Source: an uncultured Gammaproteobacteria bacterium
GTDB taxonomy: Bacteria; Patescibacteriota; Microgenomatia; JAMCZE01
Direction of reading: 5' to 3'
Length of the DNA stretch: 64,000 nucleotides
Assembly (NCBI GenBank): GCA_964641255.1
Contig: CAZXMM010000001.1
Span: 873,890-937,889 of the forward strand
The translations under genes were made by a program, and so were the position numbers. This document shows positions 505-49,435 of this stretch, one piece after another. Below the pieces are notes generated by a model that saw only the letters and a list, made by a program, of their open reading frames with translations, did no database searches and was not told the origin of the DNA. Within the stretch, counting starts at the first letter, position 1, and each line of letters starts with the position of its first letter.

Positions 505-951
505 TTATATAGTGACGCGGCTGATAGCTCCCACTTTGATATTTTCACCAAGCTTACCGACCACTGCCTTTATCATATCAGAAATGGTGACTTTAGAGTC
601 ACGAATATATTCTTGTTTTAACAGTTCGTCTACTGTCTCGGCCTGCATCGAAGCTACTTGAAGAGCGAGCTCCTTGCCCAAATTAAGAAAGTCTTCCGTT
701 TTTGCTACGAAATCGGTTTCGCACTGCAGTGAAACGAGGACGCCAATTTTGCCGCCGTGAACATATGCGAAGACTTTTCCCTCGTGAGTTTCCCGGTCTG
801 CTTTCTTGGCCGCCCTCTCAATCCCCTTTTTCTTTAAAAACTCGGTGGCTTTTTCAAAATCACCTTGGGACTGATCCAGAGCTAGCCGGCAATCAGCAAT
901 CCCAGCGCCCGTATGTTCTCTTAATTTTTTGATATCATCAACACTCGCCAT
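505..951 (-). CDS. tsf: elongation factor Ts, short form (about 148 aa from MASVDD start)
   Basis: UBA-like N-terminus IKKLREHTGAGIADCRLAL and EF-Ts core; conserved rpsB-tsf-frr order. Confidence 0.8.
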   Translation of the reverse strand: MASVDDIKKLREHTGAGIADCRLALDQSQGDFEKATEFLKKKGIERAAKKADRETHEGKVFAYVHGGKIGVLVSLQCETDFVAKTEDFLNLGKELALQVASMQAETVDELLKQEYIRDSKVTISDMIKAVVGKLGENIKVGAISRVTI

Positions 952-5500: not shown

Positions 5501-5503
5501 AGA

Positions 5504-11733: not shown

Positions 11734-12378
11734 TTAGCTTAGGGCGGCAATAATGTCTGCGACACTAGTAACGGGGGTAGCGCCTTGACTGATAAGGAAA
11801 TTAGTGCCTTTGGAGACTTCAGAGTTTATAGGTCCGGGTACAACCAAGACCTCTTTCCCTTGCTCAAGAGCCATTCGGGCTGTGATAAGGCTGCCAGATT
11901 TCATTGCTGCTTCGGTGATTAAGACTGCCACCGCCACTCCAGAAATTAGCCGATTTCGAGCAGCAAACGTCCATTTATTTACTACCTGGCCTGGTGGTAT
12001 TTCGGACATAATTACCCCCCCGGAAGTAATAATATCCGTTGCTAGCTGCTTATTGGTCTGGGGGTAGATACGATCAACGTCAGTTCCTAAAACAGCAATC
12101 GTCTTACCACCCAAGTCCAGAGTAGTCTGGTGGGCAACGGTATCCACACCTCTTGCCAACCCCGAAACAATTACAAATCCTCTGGCGACCAAGCCACTCG
12201 TAAGAGTAGTGGTAATTTCCCGACCGTAACTACTAATTTGCCTAGTGCCCACCACCCCGATAATCTGCCGCTCGTTGAAAAGTTGCTCGAGCGCCTCTTC
12301 GGTAAGCCTAGTCCTGACAAAAATCTGTTTGGGGGGATCAGGAATTAGGTGTAGTTGTGGTGGAAAAAACGTGGTCAT
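11734..12378 (-). CDS. dprA: DNA processing protein DprA/Smf (short form)
   Basis: GLARGVDTVAHQ..., Rossmann-like DprA core; adjacent to topA as in many bacteria. Confidence 0.75.
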   Translation of the reverse strand: MTTFFPPQLHLIPDPPKQIFVRTRLTEEALEQLFNERQIIGVVGTRQISSYGREITTTLTSGLVARGFVIVSGLARGVDTVAHQTTLDLGGKTIAVLGTDVDRIYPQTNKQLATDIITSGGVIMSEIPPGQVVNKWTFAARNRLISGVAVAVLITEAAMKSGSLITARMALEQGKEVLVVPGPINSEVSKGTNFLISQGATPVTSVADIIAALS

Positions 12379-35057: not shown

Positions 35058-35669
35058 ATGCCAACGCGCAAACTCATAAAAATCTTGGTTTCTTCCCTCG
35101 CTCTCGGCTTTTTTCTGGGAGTATTGGTTTTTATCGGCACTTTGACTTACATTACTAAACGGGCCGTAATTGATAACAAAATTATCTCCGATGCCATTAT
35201 CATTCTTGGCAGTCGTACCCACTCTAATGAAACCGCCAATCCCTGTCTTGTGGCCAGAATCAAGCACGGGGTAGATCTCTATCACCAGGGCTATGCTAGT
35301 AAAATAATTTTAGCTGGGGGCTACAATCCCGATGATAAACTGATCGAGGCCGAAGAAATGAAGAAGCTGACCCTGGCCCTCGGAGTTACCGAGGAAGATG
35401 TTTTGCTTGAGAGCAAGTCAACGAGCACCCAGGAGAATTTAGTGTTTTCTAACAAGATTATGAGTGATAACGGCCTAACCAGAGCAATTATTGTAACTGA
35501 GCCCTACCACTCACCCCGAGCTGATCTAGTAGCTGATAAAGTCGGGATTACCCATACTGTCTCCCCCGCTGTAAAGAGTCCCTGTTGGACTAATTTTGCC
35601 TTAGGCTGGTTCCCCCTTCTAAGAGACACCGCCGCCCTCATTGACTACAAAATTAAGGGGAGGCTGTAG
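35058..35669 (+). CDS. DUF218 (YdcF/SanA/ElyC-like) membrane-anchored protein
   Basis: IIILGSR...ILAGGYNP...STSTQENLVFS pattern. Confidence 0.55.
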   Translation: MPTRKLIKILVSSLALGFFLGVLVFIGTLTYITKRAVIDNKIISDAIIILGSRTHSNETANPCLVARIKHGVDLYHQGYASKIILAGGYNPDDKLIEAEEMKKLTLALGVTEEDVLLESKSTSTQENLVFSNKIMSDNGLTRAIIVTEPYHSPRADLVADKVGITHTVSPAVKSPCWTNFALGWFPLLRDTAALIDYKIKGRL

Positions 35670-37100: not shown

Positions 37101-37649
37101 GTGAAAGGGACAGAGCTGAGCAATTCAGCTAGAACTATTATTAAAAATAAACAATTATTGGCTCAACAGAAGGGACGTGGCACCATTCAAAAGCACCGCC
37201 AAGAAATTAAGGATCGTATCACAGCTACTGCTAATAAGCTTGTGGAAAAGGTGGCAATAGATAATGACTACGCCAAATTGTGTGCTTCTCTTATTTTTTG
37301 GTGCGAAGGCAGTAAAGGTCAAACTTCAGTACGTTTTACTAACTCGGACCCAACGCTTATAAAGCTGTTTCTTAATTTGCTCCGAAAGGGGTTTATGATT
37401 GACGAAACTAAGTTACGGGCCCTTATACACTTGCATGAGTACCATAACGAGCTTCAACAGAAGGCTTTTTGGAGTGACGTAACAAAAATTCCTTTGTCAC
37501 AATTTAGTAGGTCATATCTTAAACCGCATACCGGGAAAAATAAGCGAGCTAATTATCCAGGATGTCTAGCTGTTTATTACTATGACTCTAAAGTTGCAAA
37601 AGAATTAAGTGCAATCTACAATGCATTTACCTCAAGGGGTGTCGGTTAA
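37101..37649 (+). CDS. hypothetical protein with weak LAGLIDADG-like motif (possible degenerate homing endonuclease)
   Basis: LCASLIFWCEGSKGQTSVRFTNSDPTLIKLFLNLLRKGFMI resembles LAGLIDGDGS + beta-strand + ..LL..I...lg pattern; 3-prime end overlaps first 15 nt of tRNA-Trp. Confidence 0.25.
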   Translation: MKGTELSNSARTIIKNKQLLAQQKGRGTIQKHRQEIKDRITATANKLVEKVAIDNDYAKLCASLIFWCEGSKGQTSVRFTNSDPTLIKLFLNLLRKGFMIDETKLRALIHLHEYHNELQQKAFWSDVTKIPLSQFSRSYLKPHTGKNKRANYPGCLAVYYYDSKVAKELSAIYNAFTSRGVG

Positions 37650-37705
37650 CGGTAAACCATGGGACTCCAAATCCCAGACTGGGGGTTCAATTCCCTCCAC
37701 CCCTG
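37635..37705 (+). tRNA. tRNA-Trp (anticodon CCA), CCA tail not encoded
   Basis: AGGGGTG/CACCCCT acceptor, D-arm GGTTAACGGTAAACC, anticodon loop CTCCAAA, T-arm GGGGGTTCAATTCCCTC, discriminator G. Confidence 0.8.
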
Positions 37706-37731
37706 CTGCGTACTGTCAGAATAATCAAATC
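37690..37731 (+). repeat. repeat R0: tRNA-Trp T-arm/acceptor end plus 3-prime flank, homologous to cassette repeats R1-R9
   Basis: CCTCCACCCCTGCTGCGTACTGTCAGAATAATCAAATC aligns with R1 CCTCTGCCCAGGGTTGCTGCGTATTGTCAGGACAATCTAAATC. Confidence 0.6.
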
Positions 37732-37751
37732 TCCATTTGATACAATAAATA

Positions 37752-38378
37752 ATGGCCAAGAAGTACGATGCGGTGATAGTTTTAGCTGGGGGAGTAAATT
37801 CCGATGGCACACTTCCACAAATAATAAAAGAGCGGATTAATTTAGGAATTAGGCTATTACAAGAAAGCGCTTCAGACTTTTTGGTGTTCTCCGGGCACTT
37901 TACTTTTGTGCTAGATAACCCGCTCAATTTGAGTGAATCTGAGTCAATGAAAACTTATGCCATTTCCCAGGGAATCGCTGAAAGCAAAATCTTACTTGAT
38001 GACAAATCCAAAGATACCCTGAGCAATGCATATTTCGTAAAAGTGGACCTGGCCATACCCAGAAATTGGAAAAAACTTGCAGTGGTGAGCTCAGAAACCC
38101 ACATTGAGAGGGCTAAGTATTTATTTAATAAAGTTTTTGGGGCCAATTTTAAAATTGACTACTCTTCTACTCCATTTACCCAACTGGATACCGAGGGTTC
38201 AGCAAAAAGCAAAGAGATGGAGCGCAAACAGTTGGTTTTTTCGCATCAGTGGCTTGATCCAATTAAAGACGGTGACGATAGGTCCATTAAAGAATTGCTC
38301 TTTACCAAACACCCTGGCTTTGCGCCTAACCCAGAATTTACCATCACTCAGCTAATTGAACAACTAAATAAACTTTAA
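37752..38378 (+). CDS. DUF218 (YdcF/SanA-like) protein, second paralog; cassette 1
   Basis: AVIVLAGGVNSDG...LVFSGHF...SKDTLSNAYF...LAVVSSETHIERA DUF218 pattern. Confidence 0.5.
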   Translation: MAKKYDAVIVLAGGVNSDGTLPQIIKERINLGIRLLQESASDFLVFSGHFTFVLDNPLNLSESESMKTYAISQGIAESKILLDDKSKDTLSNAYFVKVDLAIPRNWKKLAVVSSETHIERAKYLFNKVFGANFKIDYSSTPFTQLDTEGSAKSKEMERKQLVFSHQWLDPIKDGDDRSIKELLFTKHPGFAPNPEFTITQLIEQLNKL

Positions 38379-38393
38379 CTTCTGCGTAAAAAG

Positions 38394-38455
38394 TTCGAAT
38401 ATCCTCTGCCCAGGGTTGCTGCGTATTGTCAGGACAATCTAAATCGAGATAAACT
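38394..38455 (+). repeat. cassette-boundary repeat R1 (short form)
   Basis: GCGTAAAAAGTTCGAATATCCTCTGCCCAGGGTTGCTGCGTATTGTCAGGACAATCTAAATC. Confidence 0.7.
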
Positions 38456-39938
38456 TATCTGGATTTATCTTCTCTAAAAAGTAACGATCGTGAGTAATTA
38501 CTAAAAACGTCCCTGTGTATGAGTCGATAGCCGCCTCTAAAGCCTCACGAGAAGGAATATCTAGATGATTAGTGGGCTCATCAAGAATAATAAAATTTGC
38601 TCCCGATGCCATGATCTTAAGAAGAGCTAGACGGGACTTTTGACCACTACTTAAATCATTAACAGGTGTTCTTAGGTTCTCGTCGCTATAGAGAAACCTA
38701 TGGGCAAACTTGTAAGCTGTAGTTCTATCTTGAGTAATATTTTCTTCCAAATAATTAAGCAAGATATCGCTGCTTTTCATCTCAGAATGTTCTTGTGGCA
38801 AATACCCAATTTCTACATTGTTCCCTATTTCAATACTCCCAATGTCTGGGGTGACTTTTCCCAAAACCAAATTAATAAGCGTTGTCTTTCCCGACCCATT
38901 TGATCCCAAAAGTGCTACTTTTTCGCCCCTCTCAATAAGCAAATTAAAGTTATCAAAAAGTTTTGCTTCGCCCAGTGTCTTTGATAGTCCCTTTATATAC
39001 AGGACGGTTTTGCCTGTCTCCGTTTTAGGTTTAAATATTGCTGACAAAGCCACATCATCCTTCGGTCGCTCTAACATTTCCGTTTTTTCAAGTCGTGTTT
39101 CCAGTCCTTGAGCAACGCGGGCGTATTTCCTGGAGGCACGATTCATAAAGAATGTGGAGGCAAACTTATCCTTGTCGCGGGTTGGACGATCACTCTTTTC
39201 CAAGCGTTGAATGCGCTCTTTCTTTTCGACAATCTCCCTTTCTAGTCTTTTGACCGTTTTCTGTTGCTCATCATATTGTCGGATTTTAGCATCCTTCTCA
39301 ATTTGCTTTTGTTCTCGGTAGAAAGAGTAGTTGCCTCCATACAGTTTCGTTTTCCCATCTTCAAGCTCGACTACTTTGTCAACCAAATTATCCAAAAACT
39401 TCCGATCATGAGAGATTACCAGCGCTGACCCATCATAATTTTTGAGATAGGTTTCTAGCCACTGCAACGCCGCTAGATCAAGATGATTAGTCGGTTCATC
39501 CAACAATAGGAAATCGGGGGTCTTTATCAGCAGTCTGGCCAGATATACTTTTGTTCTTTGACCACTGGAAAGCTCACTCATCTGCCTGTAAGCCACTTCA
39601 CTCAATCCTACCTCTGCCAGTGCAACATCCACCTCATATTCATTCCCCTGATCGATTTCCAAGCAATTGACCAGGAATTCGTGAACTGATTCATCAGTAA
39701 AGATCTCAGGCGCTTGAGGCACATAGCCTACAGTGGCGTCTTTAGGAACAAATTGAATACTTCCCGAGTCGGTCTTCTCCAAGCCAGCAATAATCTTCAG
39801 GAGTGTAGTCTTGCCACTCCCGTTGGCTCCAATTAACCCCACAATTTCCCCTTCTCCTATTGAAAAAGAGATTTCATTTAGGACAACGTGCCCTGCATAT
39901 TCCTTGGTGATCGAATTTAGTATTAAGTTCATGTCCAT
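38439..39938 (-). CDS. ABC-F family ATPase (tandem ABC domains, EttA/ARE-like); cassette 2
   Basis: Two Walker A (GANGSGKTT, GSNGSGKTT) and two LSSGQ signature motifs with charged inter-domain linker; no TM domain. Confidence 0.8.
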   Translation of the reverse strand: MDMNLILNSITKEYAGHVVLNEISFSIGEGEIVGLIGANGSGKTTLLKIIAGLEKTDSGSIQFVPKDATVGYVPQAPEIFTDESVHEFLVNCLEIDQGNEYEVDVALAEVGLSEVAYRQMSELSSGQRTKVYLARLLIKTPDFLLLDEPTNHLDLAALQWLETYLKNYDGSALVISHDRKFLDNLVDKVVELEDGKTKLYGGNYSFYREQKQIEKDAKIRQYDEQQKTVKRLEREIVEKKERIQRLEKSDRPTRDKDKFASTFFMNRASRKYARVAQGLETRLEKTEMLERPKDDVALSAIFKPKTETGKTVLYIKGLSKTLGEAKLFDNFNLLIERGEKVALLGSNGSGKTTLINLVLGKVTPDIGSIEIGNNVEIGYLPQEHSEMKSSDILLNYLEENITQDRTTAYKFAHRFLYSDENLRTPVNDLSSGQKSRLALLKIMASGANFIILDEPTNHLDIPSREALEAAIDSYTGTFLVITHDRYFLEKINPDKFISI

Positions 39939-40136
39939 ACCTCCAGCTTTACATAACTACCTCGTTTAGACAACAAAAAACCAGCCTTCGTGACTGGTTT
40001 AAATTTCTATTTCTAATTTACTTGTTAATTCACTAACACAAAAACCCAGCCGCTTGGCGGTTCCTTAGGCTTGTAGCCTATATGTGTCAGTGCTCTTTGT
40101 CATACTATGGGTATTATAGCATATTGGCGGTTTTGT

Positions 40137-40222
40137 GCGTAATAAGTTCGAATCCTTCGACGAGCTCAGGACAAGTTCCTTCTGCCCAGGGCTGCCACAT
40201 ATTGCCAAGACAGTCTAAACTC
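40137..40222 (+). repeat. cassette-boundary repeat R2 (long form with internal CAGGACAAGTTCC insert)
   Basis: GCGTAATAAGTTCGAATCCTTCGACGAGCTCAGGACAAGTTCCTTCTGCCCAGGGCTGCCACATATTGCCAAGACAGTCTAAACTC. Confidence 0.7.
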
Positions 40223-40266
40223 ATTATATTCCCTACCTTCTCTTAAAGATCTATAATAAACCGGTA

Positions 40267-40746
40267 ATGGAAGTAATTATTCGCCCCGTAAAACTATCTG
40301 ACTCCGAAGATATTGCTAATTACCTTTTTACCCAGGCCAAGGAAGAAGACATTAAAAAGAATCTGCAGGATGACATTCAAAAAATGGATCAGGGAAAACT
40401 TTTAAGAATTGTTGCAGAGATAGACGGAAAAGTAATTGGGCAATGCGACTTCAGGAGGCCTTCATCTGCTACCAAACAACACATAATTGATATAACTGGC
40501 CTTGTAGTAAATTCTCAGTATCAAGGTAAACGCGTTAGCTCGAAATTAATGGAATATGGATTCAATTGGGCTAAAGAACGTGGCATAACTATTGCCACAA
40601 TCTTCGTGAGAAAAGGCACAAAGGCAGAAGACATTTACCTTCACCAAGGGTTTGCGATTTATGGAGAATTAAAAGACGGCATTAAAGAAACCTGGGGAGA
40701 AGAAAAGATTTACGATGAGATCTTCCTCGCAAAAAGACTTGTATAG
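40267..40746 (+). CDS. GNAT family N-acetyltransferase (copy a); cassette 3
   Basis: 159 aa, VVNSQYQGKRVSSKLM acetyl-CoA binding segment. Confidence 0.7.
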   Translation: MEVIIRPVKLSDSEDIANYLFTQAKEEDIKKNLQDDIQKMDQGKLLRIVAEIDGKVIGQCDFRRPSSATKQHIIDITGLVVNSQYQGKRVSSKLMEYGFNWAKERGITIATIFVRKGTKAEDIYLHQGFAIYGELKDGIKETWGEEKIYDEIFLAKRLV

Positions 40747-40761
40747 CCCTCTTCAATTTGA

Positions 40762-40810
40762 GCATAAAAAGTTCGAATATCTTCTGCCCAGGGCTGCCAA
40801 CATTACTACG
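40762..40810 (+). repeat. cassette-boundary repeat R3 (short form)
   Basis: GCATAAAAAGTTCGAATATCTTCTGCCCAGGGCTGCCAACATTACTACG. Confidence 0.7.
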
Positions 40811-40833
40811 CTTCAAAATGATATAATTAGGGC

Positions 40834-41037
40834 ATGTACAACTGGAATATTGACACCTCAAAATGGAACAAAAAAAGCTCCATGTATAAAGTTTGGCGGC
40901 TCGAACAGCTAATCAACTTTGGCCTTAACAAAGAGAAGATTGGTCTCACTGAGATAAAAAAGTATTGGTCTAGATTAACTCTAGATCCACAACGAAAAGC
41001 GTTTATGAAACTTATTCTATGGCCAAATCAATCTTAA
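40834..41037 (+). CDS. small hypothetical protein (67 aa) overlapping start of AbiEii-like gene; possible cognate partner
   Basis: ORF only; 19-bp overlap with downstream nucleotidyltransferase gene. Confidence 0.25.
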   Translation: MYNWNIDTSKWNKKSSMYKVWRLEQLINFGLNKEKIGLTEIKKYWSRLTLDPQRKAFMKLILWPNQS

Positions 41038-41678
41038 CGGAAACTCAGACTAAGATTCTTAATTTTCTCTCCAATAAATCCTTCTTTCAAGATAACTTTT
41101 ACCTGACGGGAGGAACAGCCCTTGCCGAATTTTATTTACACCATCGTCTTTCCGAAGATTTAGATTTCTTTAGTGAACTAGAAATCGACAAATTTTCCTT
41201 AACCTCTCTTGCGAAGGAAATCTCGATGGTAATCGGGGCTGAAACTCAAGATGTTCAAGAAAGTTATAATCGTAATTTGGTCTATTTTAATATAAAAAGG
41301 GGGGTTCTGAAGACTGAATTTACTTATTTTCCTTTTCCTTCCGTAGAAAAACCAAAGAAGGTATCAGGAATTGCCATTGATTCCTTAACGGATATTGCTA
41401 CGAATAAATTTTTCACTATTTATCAAAAACCTTCAGCTCGGCACTTTATTGATCTTTATCTTATTCTTACGACTAAAAACTATACCTGGGCGCAACTGGA
41501 AAAGCTTGCGCGAATTAAGTTTGACACAATCATTGATCCAATTCAGCTGGGTAGTAAACTTATTAAGTCGGCAACAATTTCCGATCTTCCCCGTATGCTT
41601 ATTAAGCTTCCAGAGGATAAGTGGCGAAATTATTTTATGGAAAAGGCCCAAGAACTGAAAGATCAAGTGATAAAGTAG
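41019..41678 (+). CDS. AbiEii/AbiGii-family nucleotidyltransferase (type IV toxin-like, DUF1814); cassette 4
   Basis: YLTGGTALAEFYLHHRLSEDLDFF matches GGTAL....R.S.DiDf nucleotidyltransferase motif. Confidence 0.55.
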   Translation: MAKSILTETQTKILNFLSNKSFFQDNFYLTGGTALAEFYLHHRLSEDLDFFSELEIDKFSLTSLAKEISMVIGAETQDVQESYNRNLVYFNIKRGVLKTEFTYFPFPSVEKPKKVSGIAIDSLTDIATNKFFTIYQKPSARHFIDLYLILTTKNYTWAQLEKLARIKFDTIIDPIQLGSKLIKSATISDLPRMLIKLPEDKWRNYFMEKAQELKDQVIK

Positions 41679-41722
41679 GTTCTAACATGGTTCACCAGGC
41701 CCTGCCGATTATATATAGGCTA

Positions 41723-41740
41723 CTCTGACAATCTAAACTC
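41723..41740 (+). repeat. partial repeat (tail-only remnant, R3b) between AbiEii-like gene and GT2 gene
   Basis: CTCTGACAATCTAAACTC resembles tails of R1 (CAGGACAATCTAAATC) and R2 (CAAGACAGTCTAAACTC). Confidence 0.4.
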
Positions 41741-41771
41741 CTCTGATATAATCAGACATTGAGTTGCTTAT

Positions 41772-42464
41772 ATGAATTACACCTGTATCCTTCCTGTTTA
41801 TAATGAAGCTCCTAGAGTCGGTGGTGTATTAAAAGCTGTGACGCAGATAAAGGAAATATCGGAAATAATTTGCGTAGACGGGGGCTCTACAGATGAATCA
41901 ATAAAGGTCATCGAGAGAGACTTCCCCACCGTCACTCTAATAAAACATAAGACTAAAGAAGGTAAGGCTAAAGCCGTCACTTCAGGACTTCGAGCTGCTA
42001 AAGAACAAGCAATTATTTTACTAGACTCAGACATGCTGGGTGTGAAGCCAGAAGAACTCGTGCGTGCTATCAAGGTTTTCGAAGAACGCCAACTTGATTG
42101 TCTGATCTTAAGTAAGTCTCCCATGAATGCTGTCGATGCTTTACAAAGGAAATTATGGGGAGCATTACTCCTTTCTCAGGCAGGTGAAAGGATAATTAAA
42201 AAGCGATATTTAGAGGAAGCATTGGAATCTTCCGGAGCAAATGGATACCAATTAGAGATTGCTCAAAACAAGTATTTAATTGATAAAAATAAGAACACAG
42301 CATTTATGGATATTTCCGCGAGAAATGTTGGTAAAGCAAAAAAATTGGGTTTGTGGGCAGGTGTTATTAAGGAAATTAGTATGTGGAAACAAGTAATTGA
42401 TTACGCTGGACTTCCCTTTTTAATCAAACAATCGTTTTTCTTCACTAAGCAAAAGGTTTCCTAA
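41772..42464 (+). CDS. family 2 glycosyltransferase (DPM1-like); cassette 4
   Basis: ILPVYNEAPRV, ICVDGGSTDES, LLDSDM (DxD) motifs. Confidence 0.65.
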   Translation: MNYTCILPVYNEAPRVGGVLKAVTQIKEISEIICVDGGSTDESIKVIERDFPTVTLIKHKTKEGKAKAVTSGLRAAKEQAIILLDSDMLGVKPEELVRAIKVFEERQLDCLILSKSPMNAVDALQRKLWGALLLSQAGERIIKKRYLEEALESSGANGYQLEIAQNKYLIDKNKNTAFMDISARNVGKAKKLGLWAGVIKEISMWKQVIDYAGLPFLIKQSFFFTKQKVS

Positions 42465-42490
42465 TCAGAAGTCAGTAACCGAGTATTTTG

Positions 42491-42546
42491 TGCATAAAAG
42501 GTTCGAATGTCGTCTGCCCAGGGCTGCTAAATTGTTTTAGACAGCC
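42491..42546 (+). repeat. cassette-boundary repeat R4 (short form)
   Basis: TGCATAAAAGGTTCGAATGTCGTCTGCCCAGGGCTGCTAAATTGTTTTAGACAGCC. Confidence 0.7.
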
Positions 42547-42602
42547 ACAACAACCTGAACTATTTGCACTTCCCTAGTCTCTCAATAGATTTATAATTAA
42601 GT

Positions 42603-43082
42603 ATGGAAATAATTATTCGCCCAATAAGAATCTCTGACTCAGCAGATATTCACAAGTATTTGTTCATTCAAGCTCAGGAAGATGCGATCAAAAAAAATAT
42701 AGAAGCAGATCTTGAAAAGATGGACCAAGGGAAACTTTTGAGAATAGTTGCCGAGGCAGATGGAAAAGTGATTGGTCAATGTGACTTTAGGCGGGCATCA
42801 TCAGCCACTAAACAACATCTCGTCGACGTTACTGGTTTGGTTGTAAACTCCAAGTATCAAGGTCAAGGAATTAGCTCTCAGCTACTGGGGTATGGATTTA
42901 GCTGGGCAAAACAGCACGGAATGACGATAGCCACAATATCTGTGAGAAAAGGGACGAAGGCAGAAGACGTTTACCTTCATCAAGGATTCACGGTTTATGG
43001 TGAACTTAAAGACGGAATTAAAGAAACCTGGGGAGACGGTAAGATTTACGATGAAATCTTCCTCGCTAAGAAGCTGGACTAA
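42603..43082 (+). CDS. GNAT family N-acetyltransferase (copy b, paralog of 40267..40746); cassette 5
   Basis: 159 aa, about 75 percent identical to copy a by eye over full length, including about 60 bp of upstream sequence. Confidence 0.7.
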   Translation: MEIIIRPIRISDSADIHKYLFIQAQEDAIKKNIEADLEKMDQGKLLRIVAEADGKVIGQCDFRRASSATKQHLVDVTGLVVNSKYQGQGISSQLLGYGFSWAKQHGMTIATISVRKGTKAEDVYLHQGFTVYGELKDGIKETWGDGKIYDEIFLAKKLD

Positions 43083-43098
43083 CAATCTTCAGATTTGT

Positions 43099-43170
43099 GC
43101 GCAATTAGTTCAAATTCCTTCTCCATAAAAATTCTTCGAATTTTCAGGATAAATGCCCAGGGTTGCTGAG
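43099..43170 (+). repeat. cassette-boundary repeat R5 (degenerate, partly duplicated)
   Basis: GCGCAATTAGTTCAAATTCCTTCTCCATAAAAATTCTTCGAATTTTCAGGATAAATGCCCAGGGTTGCTGAGG. Confidence 0.6.
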
Positions 43171-43263
43171 GAAATTTAGCTTCAAAATTCACCAAAAATC
43201 AGCGATGGTTGGATGTAAATTCAAACCTAAACTCGCCCTTCTATAGTCCGAAAACTTACCACC

Positions 43264-43728
43264 TTATCGTATCATTCTCTCATATGCCACTCGACTTTGA
43301 TCCTCCCATGATGGCCCACTAAACTTAAAACCATTTTTCTCTGCAATTTTTCTCGAAGCGACATTATCACTCGACGTAATAATTACCAATTTATTAAGTT
43401 CGGTGTCGTTTTTTGCGTGTTCTACTAGCAATTGTAAAGACAAACCACCTACCCCTTTACCCCTCACTTCAGGATCGAAAATATGATAACCAATCAACGC
43501 CTCTTTCTTATTTATATCTATATCATGCAGGAATATTTCACCCACAAGTTTGCCTCGATAGAATATTCCAAAATAATCAACCGAGAGATCCACATTGGCC
43601 TTATTTCTCCACTTCTCCCAGTCCAAATCAGTATTATTGACAGGGTTGGCCAATTTGACCTTATCGATATCGACCCTCTTCAAAGTCACCTCTCCACTAG
43701 TAATTTCGGATTTGTTGCCAGCAGACAT
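43264..43728 (-). CDS. GNAT family acetyltransferase (RimJ/RimL-like, copy c); cassette 6
   Basis: HIFDPEVRGKGVGGLSLQLL...NVASRKIAEKNGFKF. Confidence 0.65.
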   Translation of the reverse strand: MSAGNKSEITSGEVTLKRVDIDKVKLANPVNNTDLDWEKWRNKANVDLSVDYFGIFYRGKLVGEIFLHDIDINKKEALIGYHIFDPEVRGKGVGGLSLQLLVEHAKNDTELNKLVIITSSDNVASRKIAEKNGFKFSGPSWEDQSRVAYERMIR

Positions 43729-43757
43729 TCCTAAAGTTTACCAGACTTTAAATTTGA

Positions 43758-43798
43758 CCGTAAAAAGTTCGAATACCTTCTGCCCAGGGCTATAAAAC
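43758..43798 (+). repeat. cassette-boundary repeat R6 (short form)
   Basis: CCGTAAAAAGTTCGAATACCTTCTGCCCAGGGCTATAAAACG. Confidence 0.7.
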
Positions 43799-43866
43799 GT
43801 GAATTGTTATCGTTTTACGTCATTCATTCACGTGATATTGACATTTTATCGTGAATATGACATCAT

Positions 43867-44742
43867 TTGCTCATGCTTTCAAACCAAATTAAAAGCAAAA
43901 TTGGGGAACTTAAAAATGAATATGAGCACTTACGAATAGGGAAAGAGTCGCTTCTTACCCTCCTTGACGAAGCAGAAGTTCCAGAAGCGGTCTACAACTC
44001 TAACGCCATTGAAAATTCCACTCTTACCCTCGCGGAAACCGAAAAGATTCTTCTTGAAATGGAAGTGTCTAGAAAAATAAGCCTGCGTGAGGTATTTGAA
44101 GCCAAGAATCTAGCCGGAGCCATGGAATATATAAGGAATAAGGCCCAACAAACTGAACTAACCAAAGACCTTATCCTCTCTTTGCATAGTATGTTCATTG
44201 GCAATATTGATGACAAAATAGCAGGCAGGTTCAGGTCTCAGAAAGAGTTCGTTCGAGTCGGGAGCTACATCGCTACACCCCCCGAACACGTTGAAAGTCG
44301 GGTGGAATCCTTACTCATCGACTACGCCAGTGACTTACGGAGTTATCTAATTGATAGTATTACCAAATTTCATCTGGAATTCGAACTTATCCACCCTTTT
44401 ATTGATGGAAATGGTCCGATTGGACGAGTGATCATCAACTATCAATTACTCCGTAACGGACTGCCCCCTATTACCATTAGGAGTAAAGAGAAAAATGCCT
44501 ACCACCTCGGTTTTGTTGCTTACCAAGACAGTAAAAACACTACTAAAATGGAAAAAATTATCAGTTTAGCGGTAATAGAGTCTCTCCATAAAAGACTGGC
44601 CTATCTTAAAAGTCAACGAATTATTCCTCTCGTTGAGTACAGCAAGCAATTAGACAAACCCGCACCGGTTGTTCTTAACATGGCGGCCCGCCAAACTCTT
44701 CCCGCCTTCAGAGAAAAAGGTGTTTGGAAGATAGGAATCTGA
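43867..44742 (+). CDS. Fic/DOC family protein (variant Fic motif); cassette 7
   Basis: HPFIDGNGPIGR (cf HPFx[DE]GNGRxxR). Confidence 0.65.
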   Translation: MLMLSNQIKSKIGELKNEYEHLRIGKESLLTLLDEAEVPEAVYNSNAIENSTLTLAETEKILLEMEVSRKISLREVFEAKNLAGAMEYIRNKAQQTELTKDLILSLHSMFIGNIDDKIAGRFRSQKEFVRVGSYIATPPEHVESRVESLLIDYASDLRSYLIDSITKFHLEFELIHPFIDGNGPIGRVIINYQLLRNGLPPITIRSKEKNAYHLGFVAYQDSKNTTKMEKIISLAVIESLHKRLAYLKSQRIIPLVEYSKQLDKPAPVVLNMAARQTLPAFREKGVWKIGI

Positions 44743-44749
44743 AGCTGGA

Positions 44750-44900
44750 GGCATAAAAAGTTTGAATCCTTCGACTGCGCTCAGGACAAGTTGTCCTCTC
44801 CCACAAACTCGTCAGTACGCGGCATGCACTCCGTGTATGCCCGCGTGCTTTGATTAGCTGGACTTCGTGCCCAGGGCAGCAAAGCCTGCTATTGACAGAC
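44750..44900 (+). repeat. cassette-boundary repeat R7 (extra-long form with embedded near-palindromes)
   Basis: GGCATAAAAAGTTTGAATCCTTCGACTGCGCTCAGGACAAGTTGTCCTCTCC...GTGCCCAGGGCAGCAAAGCC; contains AGGACAAGTTGTCCT palindrome. Confidence 0.65.
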
Positions 44901-44930
44901 GATATACCATCGTATATACTTCAGCATACT

Positions 44931-45212
44931 ATGAATTACGCAATCGTTGCCACAAAAATAGATCCTCAGACCAAAAAACTGGCAATGGAAACCGCCCATG
45001 GCCTTGGCTTACCTCTTAGCGTAGTCATCAAAGCCTTTCTAAAACAATTTATTCGCACTAAGTCGATTACTTTCAATACTTCCGAAGAACCTAGTACGTA
45101 TCTTAAAAACGCCATCGCCCAGGCAGAAAAGAACTTAAGTAAAGGAAGCTATTCTCCAACATTCAAAACTGGTGCAGACGCCGTTGCTTGGTTGGAAAAA
45201 CAAGGTATATGA
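44931..45212 (+). CDS. DinJ/RelB-family antitoxin; cassette 8
   Basis: MNYAIVATKIDPQTKKLAMETAHGLGLPLSVVIKAFLKQFI; start at internal Met; ATGA overlap with toxin gene. Confidence 0.55.
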   Translation: MNYAIVATKIDPQTKKLAMETAHGLGLPLSVVIKAFLKQFIRTKSITFNTSEEPSTYLKNAIAQAEKNLSKGSYSPTFKTGADAVAWLEKQGI

Positions 45213-45481
45213 GAGTTGTCTATGATCCCCTTTTCCTAGCTCGACTCAAAAAGGCCAATGTCAGAATACGCAAAAGTTTCAAAGAACGCATCATAATATT
45301 TTCTAAGGATCCACTTGCACTCCAACTCAACAATCACGCGTTAAAAGATGATTACCAAGGTTACCAAAGTATTGATATTACGAGTGACTGGAGAGCAATT
45401 TACAAAGAGGCAATAATTGGAGAGGATACCGTTGCCTACTTTATTATCTTAGGAACCCACAAAGAACTATATGGTAATTGA
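45209..45481 (+). CDS. RelE/YafQ-family mRNA interferase toxin; cassette 8
   Basis: MRVVYDPLFLARLKK...SKDPLALQLNNHALKDDYQGYQSIDITSDWRAIY...ILGTHKELY typical RelE/YafQ fold signature. Confidence 0.55.
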   Translation: MRVVYDPLFLARLKKANVRIRKSFKERIIIFSKDPLALQLNNHALKDDYQGYQSIDITSDWRAIYKEAIIGEDTVAYFIILGTHKELYGN

Positions 45482-45484
45482 CCA

Positions 45485-45580
45485 GGCGTAAAAAGTTCAA
45501 ATCCTTCGATCCCCTAATTGGCGAACTCAGGACAAGTTTCTTCTGTCCAGGGCTGCCGCGGATTACTAGGACAATCAACT
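45485..45580 (+). repeat. cassette-boundary repeat R8 (long form)
   Basis: GGCGTAAAAAGTTCAAATCCTTCGATCCCCTAATTGGCGAACTCAGGACAAGTTTCTTCTGTCCAGGGCTGCCGCGGATTACTAGGACAATCAACT. Confidence 0.7.
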
Positions 45581-45588
45581 TATAGATT

Positions 45589-46212
45589 GTGCATTTGCTA
45601 TACTTTTCCCACATGGATTCCCTGCTTACAATTAAAGTCATCGCTTCGGCTGCAGCTACTGGCATCGCACTTATCGCTTATATTCCCTACCTCATCGATA
45701 TGTTTAAAGGGAGGAATAAGCCGCATCTTTATACGTGGATCAGTATTTTTCTTGTAACTGCAGTCGTTAGCTACCTTCAACTTATTGGCGGAGCAGGTGT
45801 AGGAGCGATTCCAACAATAATAGGCGTTATTGTCGATGGGATTATTTTATTTTACTGCTTTAAATATGGAACTAAGGACATCGTCTTCATGGATAAGATA
45901 TGCCTCTTCATCTCGGTGGTGGGGGTTATGGCCTACGCAGCTTTGCATACAATGCCCATTGTTTCATTAGCAATTGTCACGGCGGCGGAAATTATCTCGT
46001 TTATCCCTACATTTAGAAAAACGAGAAATGATCCATATTCTGAATCATTAACCAGTTATTACCTAATATTACTTAAACTTACCCTAATACTGATTGCTCT
46101 ACAAACTTACAATCTTCTTACTGCCTCCTACTCGATTCTTTGGATTAGTGTATTTGTCGTATTTCTTACCTGCACTTATCGCTGGCGAGCCACCAAAAGG
46201 CAATCTGCTTAG
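45589..46212 (+). CDS. hypothetical polytopic membrane protein; cassette 9
   Basis: ORF with 5-6 hydrophobic helices; no motif recognized. Confidence 0.35.
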   Translation: MHLLYFSHMDSLLTIKVIASAAATGIALIAYIPYLIDMFKGRNKPHLYTWISIFLVTAVVSYLQLIGGAGVGAIPTIIGVIVDGIILFYCFKYGTKDIVFMDKICLFISVVGVMAYAALHTMPIVSLAIVTAAEIISFIPTFRKTRNDPYSESLTSYYLILLKLTLILIALQTYNLLTASYSILWISVFVVFLTCTYRWRATKRQSA

Positions 46213-46253
46213 AAAAATATGTCAAATACCTTTTGCCCAGCACTGTATTAACT
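46212..46253 (+). repeat. degenerate terminal repeat R9
   Basis: GAAAAATATGTCAAATACCTTTTGCCCAGCACTGTATTAACT aligns with R6 GTAAAAAGTTCGAATACCTTCTGCCCAGGGCTATAAAACG. Confidence 0.5.
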
Positions 46254-46688
46254 CGCTAGCTGAGGTAGGTGTTCACCTCTCCAGTGATCAATATTCTCCT
46301 TAAGGAAAGTAGCAGGAGTCTCTTCCCGATTCTGCCAAAACTCTTTGTTCCACAAGCCATCCGGAAGACTTTGATATAAACCAAGTAACTTTTCCCCTTG
46401 GCCCTCGAACTCTTTATACACCTCTTCCCAAGTCTGGCTTTTCCTCTTGTCCACCCCCTGAGCATTAAATATATCTACATCAGGTTCCCAAATGGGCTCC
46501 TCTCCTCTTTTAAGTGCTTCCAAGCAATTAATATCATGTTCGATCCAGTGGTTAAGGTGGGCGAGAACGTCTTTAAGCGACCATTTATCAAAAAGTGTTT
46601 GCGTTCTTTGATCTGGAGGAAAGCAGGCAATCTTCTCGATGAGTTCTTGACGGACTTCCCCAAATTCTTTGATCTTGTCGGAAATCAT
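46248..46688 (-). CDS. DinB/ClbS-like four-helix-bundle family protein
   Basis: W.LKDVLAHLNHWIEHD pattern typical of DinB_2/DUF1706. Confidence 0.4.
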   Translation of the reverse strand: MISDKIKEFGEVRQELIEKIACFPPDQRTQTLFDKWSLKDVLAHLNHWIEHDINCLEALKRGEEPIWEPDVDIFNAQGVDKRKSQTWEEVYKEFEGQGEKLLGLYQSLPDGLWNKEFWQNREETPATFLKENIDHWRGEHLPQLAS

Positions 46689-49033: not shown

Positions 49034-49435
49034 ATGCCCATTATTAGATACGATCCCCTAAGTCAAGTGGGTTCGCTACTACGCTGGCCTAGCCTACTCG
49101 ATGAAGATTTTGGCAATTCCAGCCAGTCGCTGGATGTTTACGAAACTGATAAGAGTATTACGGTGGCAGCCAACGTAGCCGGGGTGGAACCGAGTAAGGT
49201 CAAGGTAACTTTTCATAAAGGCATATTAACAATCACCGGCGAGGTCGCTAGTGAGGAAAAGGACAAAAAATATTATCAAAAGTCTTACCACAACTATTAT
49301 TACAAAGTGGCAGTGCCGGGGGAAATTAACCTTAATGCCGAACCCAAAGCTAAGTTCAAAAATGGCCTGGTGGAAATAGTGTTTGACAAAGTTCCCGAAG
49401 AACAACCCAAAGAAATTGTCGTTAAAGCCGGATAA
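49034..49435 (+). CDS. Hsp20/alpha-crystallin family small heat-shock protein
   Basis: LDVYETDKSITVAANVAGVEPSKVKVTFHKGILTITGE alpha-crystallin domain. Confidence 0.8.
   Translation: MPIIRYDPLSQVGSLLRWPSLLDEDFGNSSQSLDVYETDKSITVAANVAGVEPSKVKVTFHKGILTITGEVASEEKDKKYYQKSYHNYYYKVAVPGEINLNAEPKAKFKNGLVEIVFDKVPEEQPKEIVVKAG

What the first reader, a model, noticed from the sequence alone, without database searches (positions are those of the whole stretch)
37635..46253. tRNA-Trp-anchored array of nine small gene cassettes separated by tRNA-3-prime-end-like direct repeats (integron-like, no canonical attC, no integrase in window)
What is seen directly in the sequence:
- Starting at the 3-prime end of tRNA-Trp, a diverged copy of the tRNA T-arm/acceptor end plus about 25 bp of its flank recurs 10 times.
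- These are R1-R9 at 38394, 40137, 40762, 42491, 43099, 43758, 44750, 45485 and 46212, plus a tail-only remnant at 41723.
- Each copy sits in an intergenic gap, and each gap delimits a unit of one to three genes.
- The genes are DUF218, ABC-F, GNAT, AbiEii-like + GT2, GNAT, GNAT, Fic, DinJ-RelE and a membrane protein.
- The repeat core is RTAAAAAGTTCGAAT(M)YCTTCTGCCCAGGGCTGC. It carries a 9-bp near-palindrome GCCCAGGGC, the kind of site a tyrosine or serine recombinase could use as a crossover core.
- The repeats come in short (about 45-60 bp) and long (86-150 bp) forms. The long forms contain an extra CAGGACAAGTT(G)TCCT palindromic insert.
- The R1 tail aligns base for base with the sequence immediately downstream of tRNA-Trp: CTGCGTATTGTCAGGACAATCTAAATC versus CTGCGTACTGTCAG-AATAATCAAATC.

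Why it matters:
- Repeats derived from a tRNA 3-prime end are the classic footprint of site-specific integration.
- The unit size (0.5-1.7 kb), the promoter-proximal single genes, and the cargo (acetyltransferases, toxin-antitoxin pairs, Fic, ABC-F, AbiE-like) are typical of integron gene cassettes, not of whole integrative elements.
- The repeats lack the RYYYAAC/GTTRRRY cores of attC, and two cassettes are inverted.
- I do not recognise this arrangement as a described system. It may be a non-canonical cassette-capture platform, or CALIN-like, in a lineage where integrons are not known.
Basis: partly seen in the sequence, partly recalled or inferred. Interest (0 to 1): 0.85.

Follow-up and report, generated by a model that had tools for sequence, protein, structure and literature searches.

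The report
Serine-recombinase cassette stack at tRNA-Trp
The repeats are attachment-site arms of a large-serine-recombinase family of mobile elements from Patescibacteria that insert at the 3' end of tRNA genes, and the nine small gene units are recombinase-less insertions stacked behind tRNA-Trp; this is an integron-like layout made by a different enzyme.

Summary
The repeat array is real. Nine copies plus a tail-only remnant lie on one strand, only between 38.3 and 46.2 kb, and each sits between small gene units. The repeats are not copies of the tRNA end. On the minus strand they read QPWAE(D/G)IRT(F/Y)YAQ, the last codons of a large serine recombinase (LSR) gene.

In relatives of this Patescibacteria genome, full 8-10 kb elements sit at the same tRNA-Trp. 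Their LSR gene runs antisense into the tRNA 3' end, and the same repeat lies at the far end. So the repeat "core" is the P arm of an attP that lies inside the LSR gene, and the repeat "tails" are P' arms. The crossover maps to CTGC at the tRNA 3' end. A T-loop-like octamer lies 15 nt from CTGC in P arms and 10 nt in the tRNA, the 5-bp attP/attB shift known for LSRs.

Thirty-eight metagenome contigs carry the same arm, including arrays of up to eight. Nearly all units are 0.3-2.6 kb and lack an LSR. The same cassettes occur at different array positions. No attC-like folding and no recombinase gene are present in the window. Verdict: a new LSR-based variant of tandem-island or cassette arrays; whether cassettes move on their own is unproven.

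The parts
37635..37706 (+). tRNA-Trp(CCA). Its T-loop/acceptor end is the left (B) arm of the attachment site. The crossover tetranucleotide CTGC spans the 3' end.
   Evidence: ARAGORN. Relatives have an LSR gene running antisense into the same tRNA.
37707..37731 (+). P'-type tail directly after the tRNA (attL right arm). It is a remnant of the last codons before the crossover of an LSR gene.
   Evidence: 85% identical to the R1 tail, 0/2000 shuffles. The same tail type follows tRNA-Trp in L007.
37752..38378 (+). Cassette 1: DUF218 protein.
   Evidence: Pfam PF02698, E = 1.6e-21.
38373..38445 (+). R1: P arm (38373-38419) plus P' tail (38420-38445). The minus strand reads LDLDCPDNTQ|QPWAEDIRTFYAE.
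   Evidence: (E = 1.7e-14)
38439..39938 (-). Cassette 2 (inverted): ABC-F-type protein with two ABC domains.
   Evidence: Pfam ABC_tran x2 and ABC_tran_Xtn.
40131..40222 (+). R2: long-form P arm with a 23-nt insert, followed by a P' tail.
   Evidence: (E = 1.9e-10)
40267..40746 (+). Cassette 3: GNAT acetyltransferase. It is a paralogue of cassette 5 (75% nt identity).
40751..40819 (+). R3: short P arm plus a type-2-like tail.
   Evidence: E = 3.7e-16
40834..41678 (+). Cassette 4a: a 67-aa ORF plus an AbiEii-like nucleotidyltransferase.
   Evidence: Pfam PF08843. A homologous cassette directly follows tRNA-Trp in L011.
41720..41740 (+). Tail-only remnant (P' arm without a P arm).
41772..42464 (+). 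Cassette 4b: family-2 glycosyltransferase.
42481..42532 (+). R4: short P arm.
   Evidence: E = 3.9e-15
42603..43082 (+). Cassette 5: GNAT acetyltransferase.
43086..43190 (+). R5: P arm interrupted by a 31-nt insert, followed by the type-2 tail TGAGGAAATTTAGCTTCAAAAT.
   Evidence: (D5). The same tail follows a tRNA-Trp 3'-end copy in L004.
43264..43728 (-). Cassette 6 (inverted): GNAT acetyltransferase.
43747..43797 (+). R6: short P arm.
   Evidence: E = 9.6e-15
43867..44742 (+). Cassette 7: Fic protein.
   Evidence: A homologous Fic cassette in L012 starts at the same offset from the crossover.
44749..44883 (+). R7: long-form P arm with an insert of about 90 nt that includes a GC-rich hairpin.
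   Evidence: (D4)
44850..45481 (+). Cassette 8: RelB/DinJ-like antitoxin plus YafQ-like toxin.
45484..45576 (+). R8: long-form P arm plus P' tail.
   Evidence: (D3, D4)
45589..46212 (+). Cassette 9: membrane protein with no Pfam family.
46213..46245 (+). R9: degenerate terminal P arm (distal end of the array).
   Evidence: 0/2000 shuffles against the R6 arm. Weak in the profile search.

Best explanation
**What the repeats are.** They are attachment-site arms left by a Patescibacteria family of large serine recombinases (LSRs).
- The attP of these elements lies inside the 3' end of the recombinase gene.
- The attB is the 3' end of a tRNA gene, here tRNA-Trp.
- The conserved block of about 40 nt, TTTGWGCGTAAAAAGTTCGAAT-N15-CTGC, is the P arm. 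It encodes the last 13-20 codons of the LSR, read on the minus strand.
- The variable "tails" to its right are P' arms (the codons just before the crossover) or B'-like sequence.

**How the array forms (inferred).** Each insertion at the tRNA-proximal site pushes older units away from the tRNA. The window therefore holds a stack: tRNA|P'-unit-P|P'-unit-P|...-P|chromosome.

**What the units are.** All nine units in the window have no recombinase gene and carry accessory genes: GNATs, toxin-antitoxin pairs, Fic, ABC-F, GT2 and DUF218. Promoter-like boxes lie upstream of several of them, but they are no more frequent than in shuffles.

**Shown:** the identity of the arms, the crossover position, the link to LSRs, and the variation between genomes at the crossover.

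**Inferred:**
- Insertion was serial.
- The small units are non-autonomous cassettes inserted, and possibly excised, by an LSR supplied in trans. I put this at about 0.5, against about 0.3 for nine decayed full-size elements.
For: **LSR elements at the same tRNA in relatives**
- L006, L009 and L010 (MurF 53-64% identical, same tRNA-Thr/MurF/tRNA-Trp synteny) carry a 586-594-aa LSR gene antisense to tRNA-Trp and overlapping its 3' end.
- Family members have Resolvase, Recombinase and Zn_ribbon_recom domains.

**The repeat is the far end of those elements and the LSR's own tail**
- The window's repeat sits 9.6 kb (L006) and 8 kb (L010) away at the other end of the element.
- Joining the two ends of the L006 element gives the LSR tail ...LESSWAQNPYM|QPWAEGIRTYYAQNFQFVTI*. 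The window repeats translate to QPWAEDIRTFYAQ.
- In L021 an LSR C-terminal ORF runs uninterrupted through the arm...SENWQPWMEAIRTFYAQPTYSTV*.

**Crossover and site geometry**
- Across 41 distinct copies, conservation is near total up to CTGC and is lost at the next base. Entropy by minus-strand codon phase is 3rd 0.58 > 1st 0.42 > 2nd 0.25.
- GTTCRAWT lies 15 nt from CTGC in P arms and 10 nt in the tRNAs. This is the 5-bp shift of the zinc-ribbon motif between attP and attB described for LSRs (PMC3783163).

**Family-wide behaviour**
- 608 LSR homologues were found.
- Of the best 120, 106 have W.QNP..L near the C-terminus. In 48 of these the next residues read as the antisense of a tRNA T-loop.
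- One member was checked and overlaps tRNA-Asn.

**Other loci**
- 38 metagenome contigs carry the arm. Wherever a tRNA-Trp is on the contig, it lies upstream on the same strand.
- Arrays of up to 8 arms in 6.2 kb occur.

**Cassette-level evidence**
- 31 of 39 inter-site intervals are 0.25-1.74 kb, six are 2.6-2.8 kb and two (7.9 and 9.6 kb) carry an LSR; nothing lies between 2.8 and 7.9 kb.
- Only one LSR remnant was found.
- The same cassettes occupy different array positions, with homology starting at the crossover.
Against: - No LSR gene, or fragment longer than 19 codons, is in the 64-kb window. The rest of the 950-kb genome could not be read.
- No recombination was observed. Everything is comparative.
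- Four of the nine window arms (R2, R5, R7, R8) carry inserts that break the 15-nt spacing, so they may be dead sites.
- Canonical LSRs do not recombine attP with attL. Repeated insertion at an occupied site therefore needs a relaxed enzyme (as with Ccr) or another route.
- Several cassettes have B'-like rather than P'-like left ends.
- The distal end of the L009 element was not found.
- Dyad symmetry of the reconstructed attP is only approximate.
Confidence: 0.8

Rival explanations
1. Decay only. The nine units are what is left of nine full-size (8-10 kb) LSR elements that inserted in tandem. Each then lost its recombinase and replication genes by deletion. The small units have never moved on their own.
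For: - Full elements sit at the same site in relatives.
- In L010 a full element is tRNA-proximal, with an LSR-less AbiEii unit behind it.
- L021 keeps a 105-codon LSR remnant.
- Truncated LSRs occur in the protein set (P0131, P0164, P0178).
- Tandem arrays of integrative elements and their decay are well known (PMC7192596).
Against: - The size distribution is bimodal, with nothing between 2.8 and 7.9 kb.
- Only one LSR remnant was found among all arm sites in the loci searched (at least 45 distinct copies).
- Arms and tails are cleanly bounded at the crossover.
- A diverged (67% nt) Fic cassette keeps the same boundaries in two unrelated arrays.
Confidence: 0.3
2. Integron-like platform. A tyrosine recombinase elsewhere in the genome captures cassettes through folded, attC-like single-stranded sites.
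For: The layout resembles an integron: small cassettes, mostly co-oriented, each followed by a repeat, with typical cargo.
Against: - DNA folding of both strands of seven repeats gives z-scores around zero, with no shared hairpin.
- There are no RYYYAAC/GTTRRRY cores.
- Pfam found no tyrosine recombinase among 49 window ORFs scanned.
- The arm is the end of an LSR ORF.
- Promoter-like boxes lie upstream of several cassettes, though no more often than in shuffles.
Confidence: 0.02
3. A dispersed MITE/REP-type or regulatory repeat (terminator or promoter module) unrelated to site-specific recombination.
For: - The tails contain -35-like hexamers placed 16-18 nt before TATAAT-like boxes.
- The repeats directly follow stop codons.
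Against: - There are no copies elsewhere in the 64-kb window.
- All copies are on one strand and downstream of tRNA-Trp, across dozens of contigs.
- There are no terminal inverted repeats and no stable fold.
- Promoter and terminator counts are not above shuffles.
Confidence: 0.03
4. The array grew mainly by local duplication and by homologous recombination between the 40-nt arms, possibly after DNA uptake, rather than by repeated recombinase-catalysed insertion.
For: - Two GNAT cassettes are paralogues, 75% nt identical.
- R2, R7 and R8 arms share one insert, so they are copies of each other.
- DprA is present in the window.
Against: - Seven of the nine units are unrelated to each other.
- Tails are of several unrelated types.
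- The boundaries fall exactly at the crossover, not within the arms.
Confidence: 0.1

Closest known systems
SCC/SCCmec composite islands of staphylococci (CcrAB/CcrC large serine recombinases, 3' end of rlmH/orfX)
   Same: - Large serine recombinases insert elements at the 3' end of a conserved housekeeping gene.
- Repeated insertion gives islands of several units bounded by direct repeats that hold the integration site.
- Some units lack the recombinase (pseudo-SCC, ACME). Source: PMC7029136.
   Different: - Here the target is a tRNA gene.
- Units are mostly single genes of 0.3-1.7 kb, not 10-60 kb.
- attP lies inside the recombinase ORF.
- The hosts are Patescibacteria.
Tandem arrays of integrative genetic elements at tRNA genes (Islander/TIGER surveys)
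   Same: - The array is anchored at a tRNA 3' end.
- Serial insertion restores a usable site.
- Arrays mix diverse neighbours, and within-array recombination occurs (PMC7192596).
   Different: - Those arrays are almost all made by tyrosine integrases, and the repeat is a true tRNA fragment.
- Use of tRNA genes by large serine integrases was called previously unreported in 2020, at 14 of 297 cases, and in need of proof (PMC7192596; PMC4383910).
- Here the tRNA is not split, and the repeat is not a tRNA fragment.
Integron gene-cassette arrays
   Same: - One-to-few-gene cassettes, each followed by a recombination site.
- Stacking from a fixed entry point.
- Accessory, toxin-antitoxin and acetyltransferase cargo.
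- The recombinase is not part of the cassette.
   Different: - No IntI, no folded attC and no attC cores; attI and Pc were not tested.
- Promoter-like boxes lie upstream of several cassettes, and two cassettes are inverted.
- The site is the double-stranded half-site of a serine recombinase.
Integrases whose ORF spans attP: Mx8 IntP and SSV-type integrases
   Same: attP lies inside the recombinase gene, so integration changes (Mx8) or splits (SSV) the protein. The target is a tRNA gene (PMC4383910, which cites Tojo 1996).
   Different: - Those are tyrosine recombinases.
- Here a serine recombinase swaps only its last ~20 residues.
Tycheposons of Prochlorococcus and pdif modules of Acinetobacter plasmids (from my own knowledge; not checked here)
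   Same: - tRNA-proximal islands built from stacked complete and cargo-only elements (tycheposons).
- Small one-to-three-gene modules bounded by sites for a recombinase supplied in trans (pdif).
   Different: - The recombinase classes differ (tyrosine/Xer).
- The hosts differ.
- The sites are not part of the recombinase ORF.

Membership tests
Integron (IntI / attI / attC cassettes) | IntI tyrosine recombinase gene next to the array | tested here: not met
   Pfam found no Phage_integrase hit among 49 window ORFs scanned, including all array neighbours.
Integron (IntI / attI / attC cassettes) | attC sites: inverted core sites RYYYAAC/GTTRRRY and a folded imperfect hairpin | tested here: not met
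   The cores are absent. DNA folds of both strands of seven repeats give z-scores between -2.7 and +1.1, with no common structure.
Integron (IntI / attI / attC cassettes) | Promoterless, co-oriented cassettes read from Pc | tested here: inconclusive
   Two of the nine units are inverted. TATAAT-like boxes lie just before several ATGs, but the promoter-like count is not above shuffles and transcription was not measured.
Large-serine-recombinase integrative element (attP x attB) | LSR gene (Resolvase + Recombinase + zinc ribbon) at one end of the element | tested here: met
   Met in relatives L006, L009 and L010 at the same tRNA-Trp. Not met for any unit in the window itself.
Large-serine-recombinase integrative element (attP x attB) | Junctions share only a short crossover identity, and the arms differ on either side | tested here: met
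   attL ...CCCCTGCATGTACGG and attR ...AAGGCTGCAAACAAAA share CTGCA. Entropy steps up right after CTGC.
Large-serine-recombinase integrative element (attP x attB) | Zinc-ribbon-domain motif 5 bp closer to the centre in attB than in attP | tested here: met
   GTTCRAWT is 15 nt from CTGC in all P arms and 10 nt in the tRNA-Trp genes. The rule is from PMC3783163. This was tested for the left arms only.
Large-serine-recombinase integrative element (attP x attB) | Imperfect dyad symmetry of a 40-50-bp attP around a central dinucleotide | tested here: inconclusive
   By eye, the right arm of type-1 sites has ATTTTGAGC, resembling the inverted octamer. The inferred centre is 2-4 nt off the mapped crossover (sequences).
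Large-serine-recombinase integrative element (attP x attB) | Recombination catalysed by the enzyme | not testable with these tools
   Needs an in vitro or in vivo assay.
Tandem array / composite island of integrative elements | Direct repeats of the att site in one orientation, anchored at a conserved gene end. Units may have or lack the recombinase. | tested here: met
   Recombinase-bearing units are seen only in relatives.
MITE / REP-type dispersed repeat | Copies scattered over the genome, on both strands, with terminal inverted repeats or a stable hairpin | tested here: not met
   In the window and in 48 other loci the copies are on one strand, downstream of tRNA-Trp. There is no stable fold. 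The whole source genome was not available.
attP-inside-integrase elements (Mx8 / SSV type) | The recombinase ORF extends across attP, so integration alters the protein | tested here: met
   The enzyme class differs (serine, not tyrosine), so this is an analogy, not membership.

The most novel reading that the evidence does not exclude
Patescibacteria have a serine-recombinase counterpart of the integron.
- Non-autonomous cassettes of one to three genes carry nothing but an LSR attachment site.
- An LSR supplied in trans by a rare 8-10 kb autonomous element captures them at the 3' end of tRNA genes, and possibly releases them.
- Cassettes with B'-like left ends may use the attL x attR reaction to enter and the attB x attP-type reaction to leave, the reverse of the autonomous element.
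Probability: 0.4. Interest if true: 0.85.

Novelty: new variant of a known kind. Interest (0 to 1): 0.66.

Why it matters
- **A rarely documented target class.** Large serine integrases were long held not to use tRNA genes. A 2020 survey found only 14 of 297 cases and asked for proof (PMC7192596). Here a family of more than 600 LSRs from Patescibacteria appears specialised for tRNA 3' ends, with attP and attB readable directly from the sequence.
- **Gene gain in reduced genomes.** The result gives a concrete route by which these very small, host-dependent genomes acquire and shuffle accessory genes such as toxin-antitoxin pairs, Fic, GNATs, ABC-F and stress proteins.
- **Possible tools.** It supplies many natural attP/attB pairs for an enzyme class used in genome engineering.
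- **Testable mobility.** If the small units move on their own, they would be a second, mechanistically distinct cassette-capture system beside integrons.
- **Annotation artefact.** Public LSR proteins of this family carry chimeric C-termini, read from the antisense strand of a tRNA.

Tried and rejected
- **Species-representative genomes.** Scanning with GTTCGAATNNCNTCTGCCCAGGG gave one hit, in a Syntrophomonadaceae MAG with no tRNA nearby. About one hit is my own estimate of the chance expectation.
- **Metagenomes and viruses.** The same pattern in JGI metagenomes gave none. A generalised pattern then gave 38 loci but none in IMG/VR.
- **Plus-strand reading frame.** The + strand frame of the repeat (VRISSAQGC) has third codon positions coinciding with the minus frame. 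I dropped it because a stop codon precedes it in every copy, and the minus frame matches a real LSR tail.
- **Displaced gene end.** The idea that the repeat is the displaced 3' end of the flanking DinB-like gene (46248-46688) was rejected. The frame and the sequence do not fit.
- **tRNA-like structure.** The T-stem halves do not pair (by eye), and the alignment to the tRNA is at shuffle level.
- **attC-like folding.** None was found.
- **Recombinases in the window.** None was found by Pfam or by tblastn with 120 LSRs.
- **L009 element.** Its distal end was not found with the profile or with regular expressions.
- **Promoters and terminators.** Counts are not above shuffles.
- **ORF upstream of tRNA-Trp.** It has no PDB sequence relative and only weak HTH hits.
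- **Viral contigs.** An LSR alignment found one distant (36%) relative, with no tRNA on the contig.

Full report
**1. The observation**

tRNA-Trp(CCA) is at 37635-37706 on the + strand. The repeat family is real.
- The core TTCTGCCCAGGGCTGC occurs seven times at up to three mismatches, against 0.45 expected. All copies are on the + strand and all lie between 38.4 and 45.6 kb of the 64-kb window.
- The head GTAAAAAGTTCGAAT occurs at the same seven places.
- A profile built from the copies recovers R1, R2, R3, R4 and R6 at E = 1e-10 to 1e-16. It recovers R5, R7 and R8 as separate head and core halves, and R9 only weakly.
- Shuffle tests support R9 (0/2000), R5 (3/2000) and the tail-only remnant (1/2000). 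The remnant's motif occurs 3 times against 0.23 expected.
- Every copy lies between ORFs.
- The 26 nt after the tRNA match the R1 tail (85% identity, 0/2000 shuffles).

One element of the description fails. The tRNA T-arm/acceptor sequence does not align to the repeat core better than shuffles (1114/2000). Only the octamer GTTC(G)AAT is shared.

**2. What the repeat encodes**

Differences between copies fall on every third base. On the minus strand the copies read (L)DC(P)xNxxQPWAE(D/G)IRT(F/Y)YAQ. In the window this is never part of a long ORF, and some copies carry stops, so it is a fragment of something coding.

**3. The organism and the locus in relatives**

The MurF gene beside the tRNA has a 100% match on a 950-kb NCBI contig. 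Its relatives are labelled Patescibacteria, and the nearest are only 64% and 53-56% identical. The one other contig carrying the DUF218 cassette protein has the same array.

Relatives keep the synteny tRNA-Thr(GGT) ... MurF, tRNA-Trp. They have different genes after tRNA-Trp:
- **L003:** one HSP20 gene.
- **L004:** a 285-aa GNAT and a 312-aa protein.
- **L007/L008:** a 177-aa protein, and others.

In each relative the genes are followed by the same element in the same orientation. L004 also has an exact second copy of the tRNA-Trp 3' end, followed by the tail type seen at window R5.

**4. The recombinase**

In L006 a 588-aa large serine recombinase (LSR) gene lies antisense to tRNA-Trp and overlaps its last 61 nt. 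The repeat sits 9.6 kb away at the far end of the inserted block.

Joining the two junctions restores one ORF end...LESSWAQNPYM|QPWAEGIRTYYAQNFQFVTI*. The window repeats match this tail (tblastn).

L009 and L010 have LSR elements of the same kind at tRNA-Trp; L010's spans about 8 kb, while L009's far end was not found. Both also encode a DnaG-type zinc-ribbon (primase-like) protein, L010 a DUF3987 protein, and L009, like L006, a restriction-modification gene. L010 has the arm at its far end.

In L021 an LSR C-terminal ORF runs straight through the arm...SENWQPWMEAIRTFYAQPTYSTV*. That is independent proof that the arm is the natural end of an LSR gene.

The repeat therefore has two parts:
- The conserved "head plus core" is the P arm of an attP that lies inside the recombinase gene.
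- The "tails" are P' arms, i.e. the codons just upstream of the crossover.

The window's tRNA-proximal junction is an attL (tRNA|P'). R1 to R8 are P|P' or P|other composites, and R9 is the distal P arm.

**5. Crossover and site geometry**

attL (…CCACCCCTGCATGTACGG) and attR (…CCCAAGGCTGCAAACAAAA) of L006 share only CTGCA.

Among 41 distinct copies from 40-odd loci, conservation is almost complete up to CTGC and is lost at the next base. Entropy follows codon phase on the minus strand: 3rd 0.58 > 1st 0.42 > 2nd 0.25.

The T-loop-like octamer lies 15 nt from CTGC in all P arms and 10 nt from CTGC in the tRNA-Trp genes. Rutherford et al. showed that the zinc-ribbon-domain motif of an LSR site is shifted 5 bp toward the centre in attB relative to attP (PMC3783163). 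This explains why the repeat looked tRNA-like without being a tRNA copy. The same protein domain must read both.

The GCCCAGGGC palindrome is absent from most family members, which read CCATCCAGGG. It is incidental.

**6. The family**

A search with the restored LSR found 608 homologues at E <= 1e-20. The names given by sources are Levy-, Woese-, Davies- and Gottesmanbacteria and "Patescibacteria group".

Of the best 120:
- 106 have a W.QNP..L motif near the C-terminus.
- In 48 of those, the following residues read x(D/E)S(N/D), the antisense of a tRNA T-loop.
- 39 end within four residues of the motif.
- 18 have other tails. One of these (P0150) was looked up and has no tRNA nearby; the rest may also be unintegrated or tandem forms.

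One member that I checked overlaps tRNA-Asn. The whole family therefore seems to target tRNA 3' ends. Gene callers give its members chimeric C-termini.

**7. Arrays elsewhere**

A generalised arm pattern found 38 metagenome contigs and none in IMG/VR.
- In all nine contigs that hold a tRNA-Trp, the arm is 0.5-2.7 kb downstream on the same strand. Further arms on a contig are all on that strand.
- L018 has eight arms in 6.2 kb. L012, L022 and L029 have three each.
- Of 39 inter-site intervals, 31 are 0.25-1.74 kb, six are 2.6-2.8 kb and two (7.9 and 9.6 kb) hold an LSR. Nothing lies between 2.8 and 7.9 kb.
- tblastn with 120 LSRs finds LSR sequence only in L006, L009, L010 and the L021 remnant.
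- Cargo elsewhere resembles the window's: Fic, AbiEii, NUDIX, DsbA-like, GIY-YIG and a methyltransferase.

**8. Variation at the boundaries**

- A 470-nt cassette lies directly after tRNA-Trp in L040 and between two arms in L012 (85% nt identity).
- A 2.6-kb cassette is first in L036 and internal in L029 (89%).
- A Fic cassette is shared by L012 and the window (67%) with different neighbours.

In each case the homology begins at the first bases after CTGC.

**9. Tests of the integron reading**

- DNA folding of both strands of seven repeats shows no shared hairpin, and z-scores scatter around zero.
- attC cores are absent.
- No tyrosine or serine recombinase was found among 49 window ORFs scanned with Pfam.
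- Two cassettes are inverted.
- Several have TATAAT-like boxes just before the ATG. Promoter-like matches are not above shuffles overall.

The layout is integron-like, but the machinery is not.

**10. Mechanism: what is shown and what is inferred**

*Shown:* the identity of the arms, their link to an LSR gene, the crossover position, the attP/attB spacing rule, the tRNA-Trp anchoring, and the cassette-level differences between genomes.

*Inferred:* insertion is serial at the tRNA-proximal junction. This yields the observed P(new)|P'(old) composites and puts the newest unit next to the tRNA, as in L010.

*Open:* are the small units decayed elements or non-autonomous cassettes?
- **For cassettes:** the bimodal sizes, the near absence of LSR remnants, the clean ends, and an old Fic cassette that keeps its boundaries. 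I put this at about 0.5.
- **For decay:** L021 and the truncated LSRs. I put this at about 0.3.

A further difficulty applies to both routes. Canonical LSRs do not recombine attP with attL. Either this family is relaxed, as Ccr recombinases are, or another pairing is used.

Some cassettes have B'-like left ends. A circle of such a cassette would carry an attR-like site. It could enter by the attL x attR reaction and leave by the attB x attP-type reaction. This is an idea only.

**11. Comparison with known systems, and novelty**

Tandem arrays of integrative elements are known (PMC7192596). So are SCC composite islands with recombinase-less units, made by Ccr LSRs at the 3' end of rlmH (PMC7029136). 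Integrase ORFs that span attP are known for Mx8 and SSV, both tyrosine recombinases (PMC4383910).

What is unusual:
[quoted passage not shown] PMC7192596 found 14 of 297 and called this previously unreported and in need of proof.
- **The scale of the family.**
- **The host phylum.**
- **The predominance of single-gene, recombinase-less units.**

Full-text searches found no description of this system in Patescibacteria. The library is incomplete, so this is absence of evidence only. I rate it a new variant of a known kind.

**12. Limits**

- The rest of the source genome could not be read.
- Nothing here demonstrates recombination.
- Four window arms carry inserts at one point that break the 15-nt spacing and are unexplained.
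- The dyad symmetry of the attP is only approximate.

Noticed in passing
window 37101-37649 (+); L040 (reverse-complement orientation) 8902-9564; L032 (reverse-complement orientation) 5196-5906: A conserved ORF sits directly upstream of tRNA-Trp. In the window its stop codon lies 15 nt inside the tRNA gene. It has no Pfam family. The longer homologues show weak N-terminal HTH hits, and by eye a LAGLIDADG-like stretch (LFWTEGGKS). It has no PDB sequence relative. Its fixed position beside the attachment site may or may not be meaningful.
   Followed up: partly
L004 about 8110-8085 (- strand): An exact second copy of the tRNA-Trp 3' end (TTCTATCCGCCCCTGC) lies about 100 bp after the tRNA. It is followed by GGAGGAAATTTAGCTTCAGATTT, the same tail type as window R5 (43167-43190). 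It looks like a nearly empty insertion.
   Followed up: partly
window 40154-40177, 44770-44864, 45506-45540, 43116-43153; L010 about 2750-2728: Inserts interrupt the P arm at the same point, between the T-loop-like octamer and the crossover-proximal part. Three share CTCAGGACAAGTT, which together with TTGTCAGGACAA in the tails forms palindromes. The L010 insert is a 23-nt palindrome. The R7 insert includes a GC-rich hairpin (44804-44839).
   Followed up: partly
protein hits P0121-P0240: Public gene calls for this LSR family run on into the antisense strand of the target tRNA. This gives artificial C-termini such as ...LPRVDSNHEP or ...QGWIESNYR.
   Followed up: yes
L021 (reverse-complement orientation) 475-816, minus strand: The last ~105 codons of an LSR are fused in frame to an unrelated N-terminal segment (MNMKNALILHGAGNDHTGNWLPW...). 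The ORF reads through the P arm to a stop six codons later.
   Followed up: partly
L050 2325-3911 and 10001-11776; L051: A 38-kb contig holds two LSR genes and a 1519-aa helicase-like protein, with no tRNA within 10 kb. The LSR P0150 has a non-tRNA C-terminus. It is probably an unintegrated element of the same family.
   Followed up: partly
L052 5980-7722 (IMG/VR contig): This is the only viral-collection relative (36% identity). Its tail reads ...YLESPVMLATSDLNPMERGF with no tRNA on the contig. It is a possible attP form whose own tail has a T-loop-like sequence.
   Followed up: partly
window 38426-38455, 40202-40230, 41725-41752: The P' tails supply -35-like hexamers (TTGTCA, TTGCCA, CTGACA) 16-18 nt before TATAAT-like boxes. 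The one at 41725-41752 lies just ahead of the GT2 gene (41772), and the one at 40202-40230 ahead of the GNAT gene (40267). The overall count is not above shuffles.
   Followed up: partly
window 49034-49435; L003 8881-9282; L007 277-678: An HSP20 gene recurs near tRNA-Trp. It is the single att-flanked cassette in L003 and the third gene in L007. In the window it lies 3 kb beyond the end of the array.
   Followed up: no
window 11734-12378 and 35058-35669: A DprA gene (DNA uptake/processing) is present. A second DUF218 gene sits beside MurF, a family relative of the first cassette gene.
   Followed up: no
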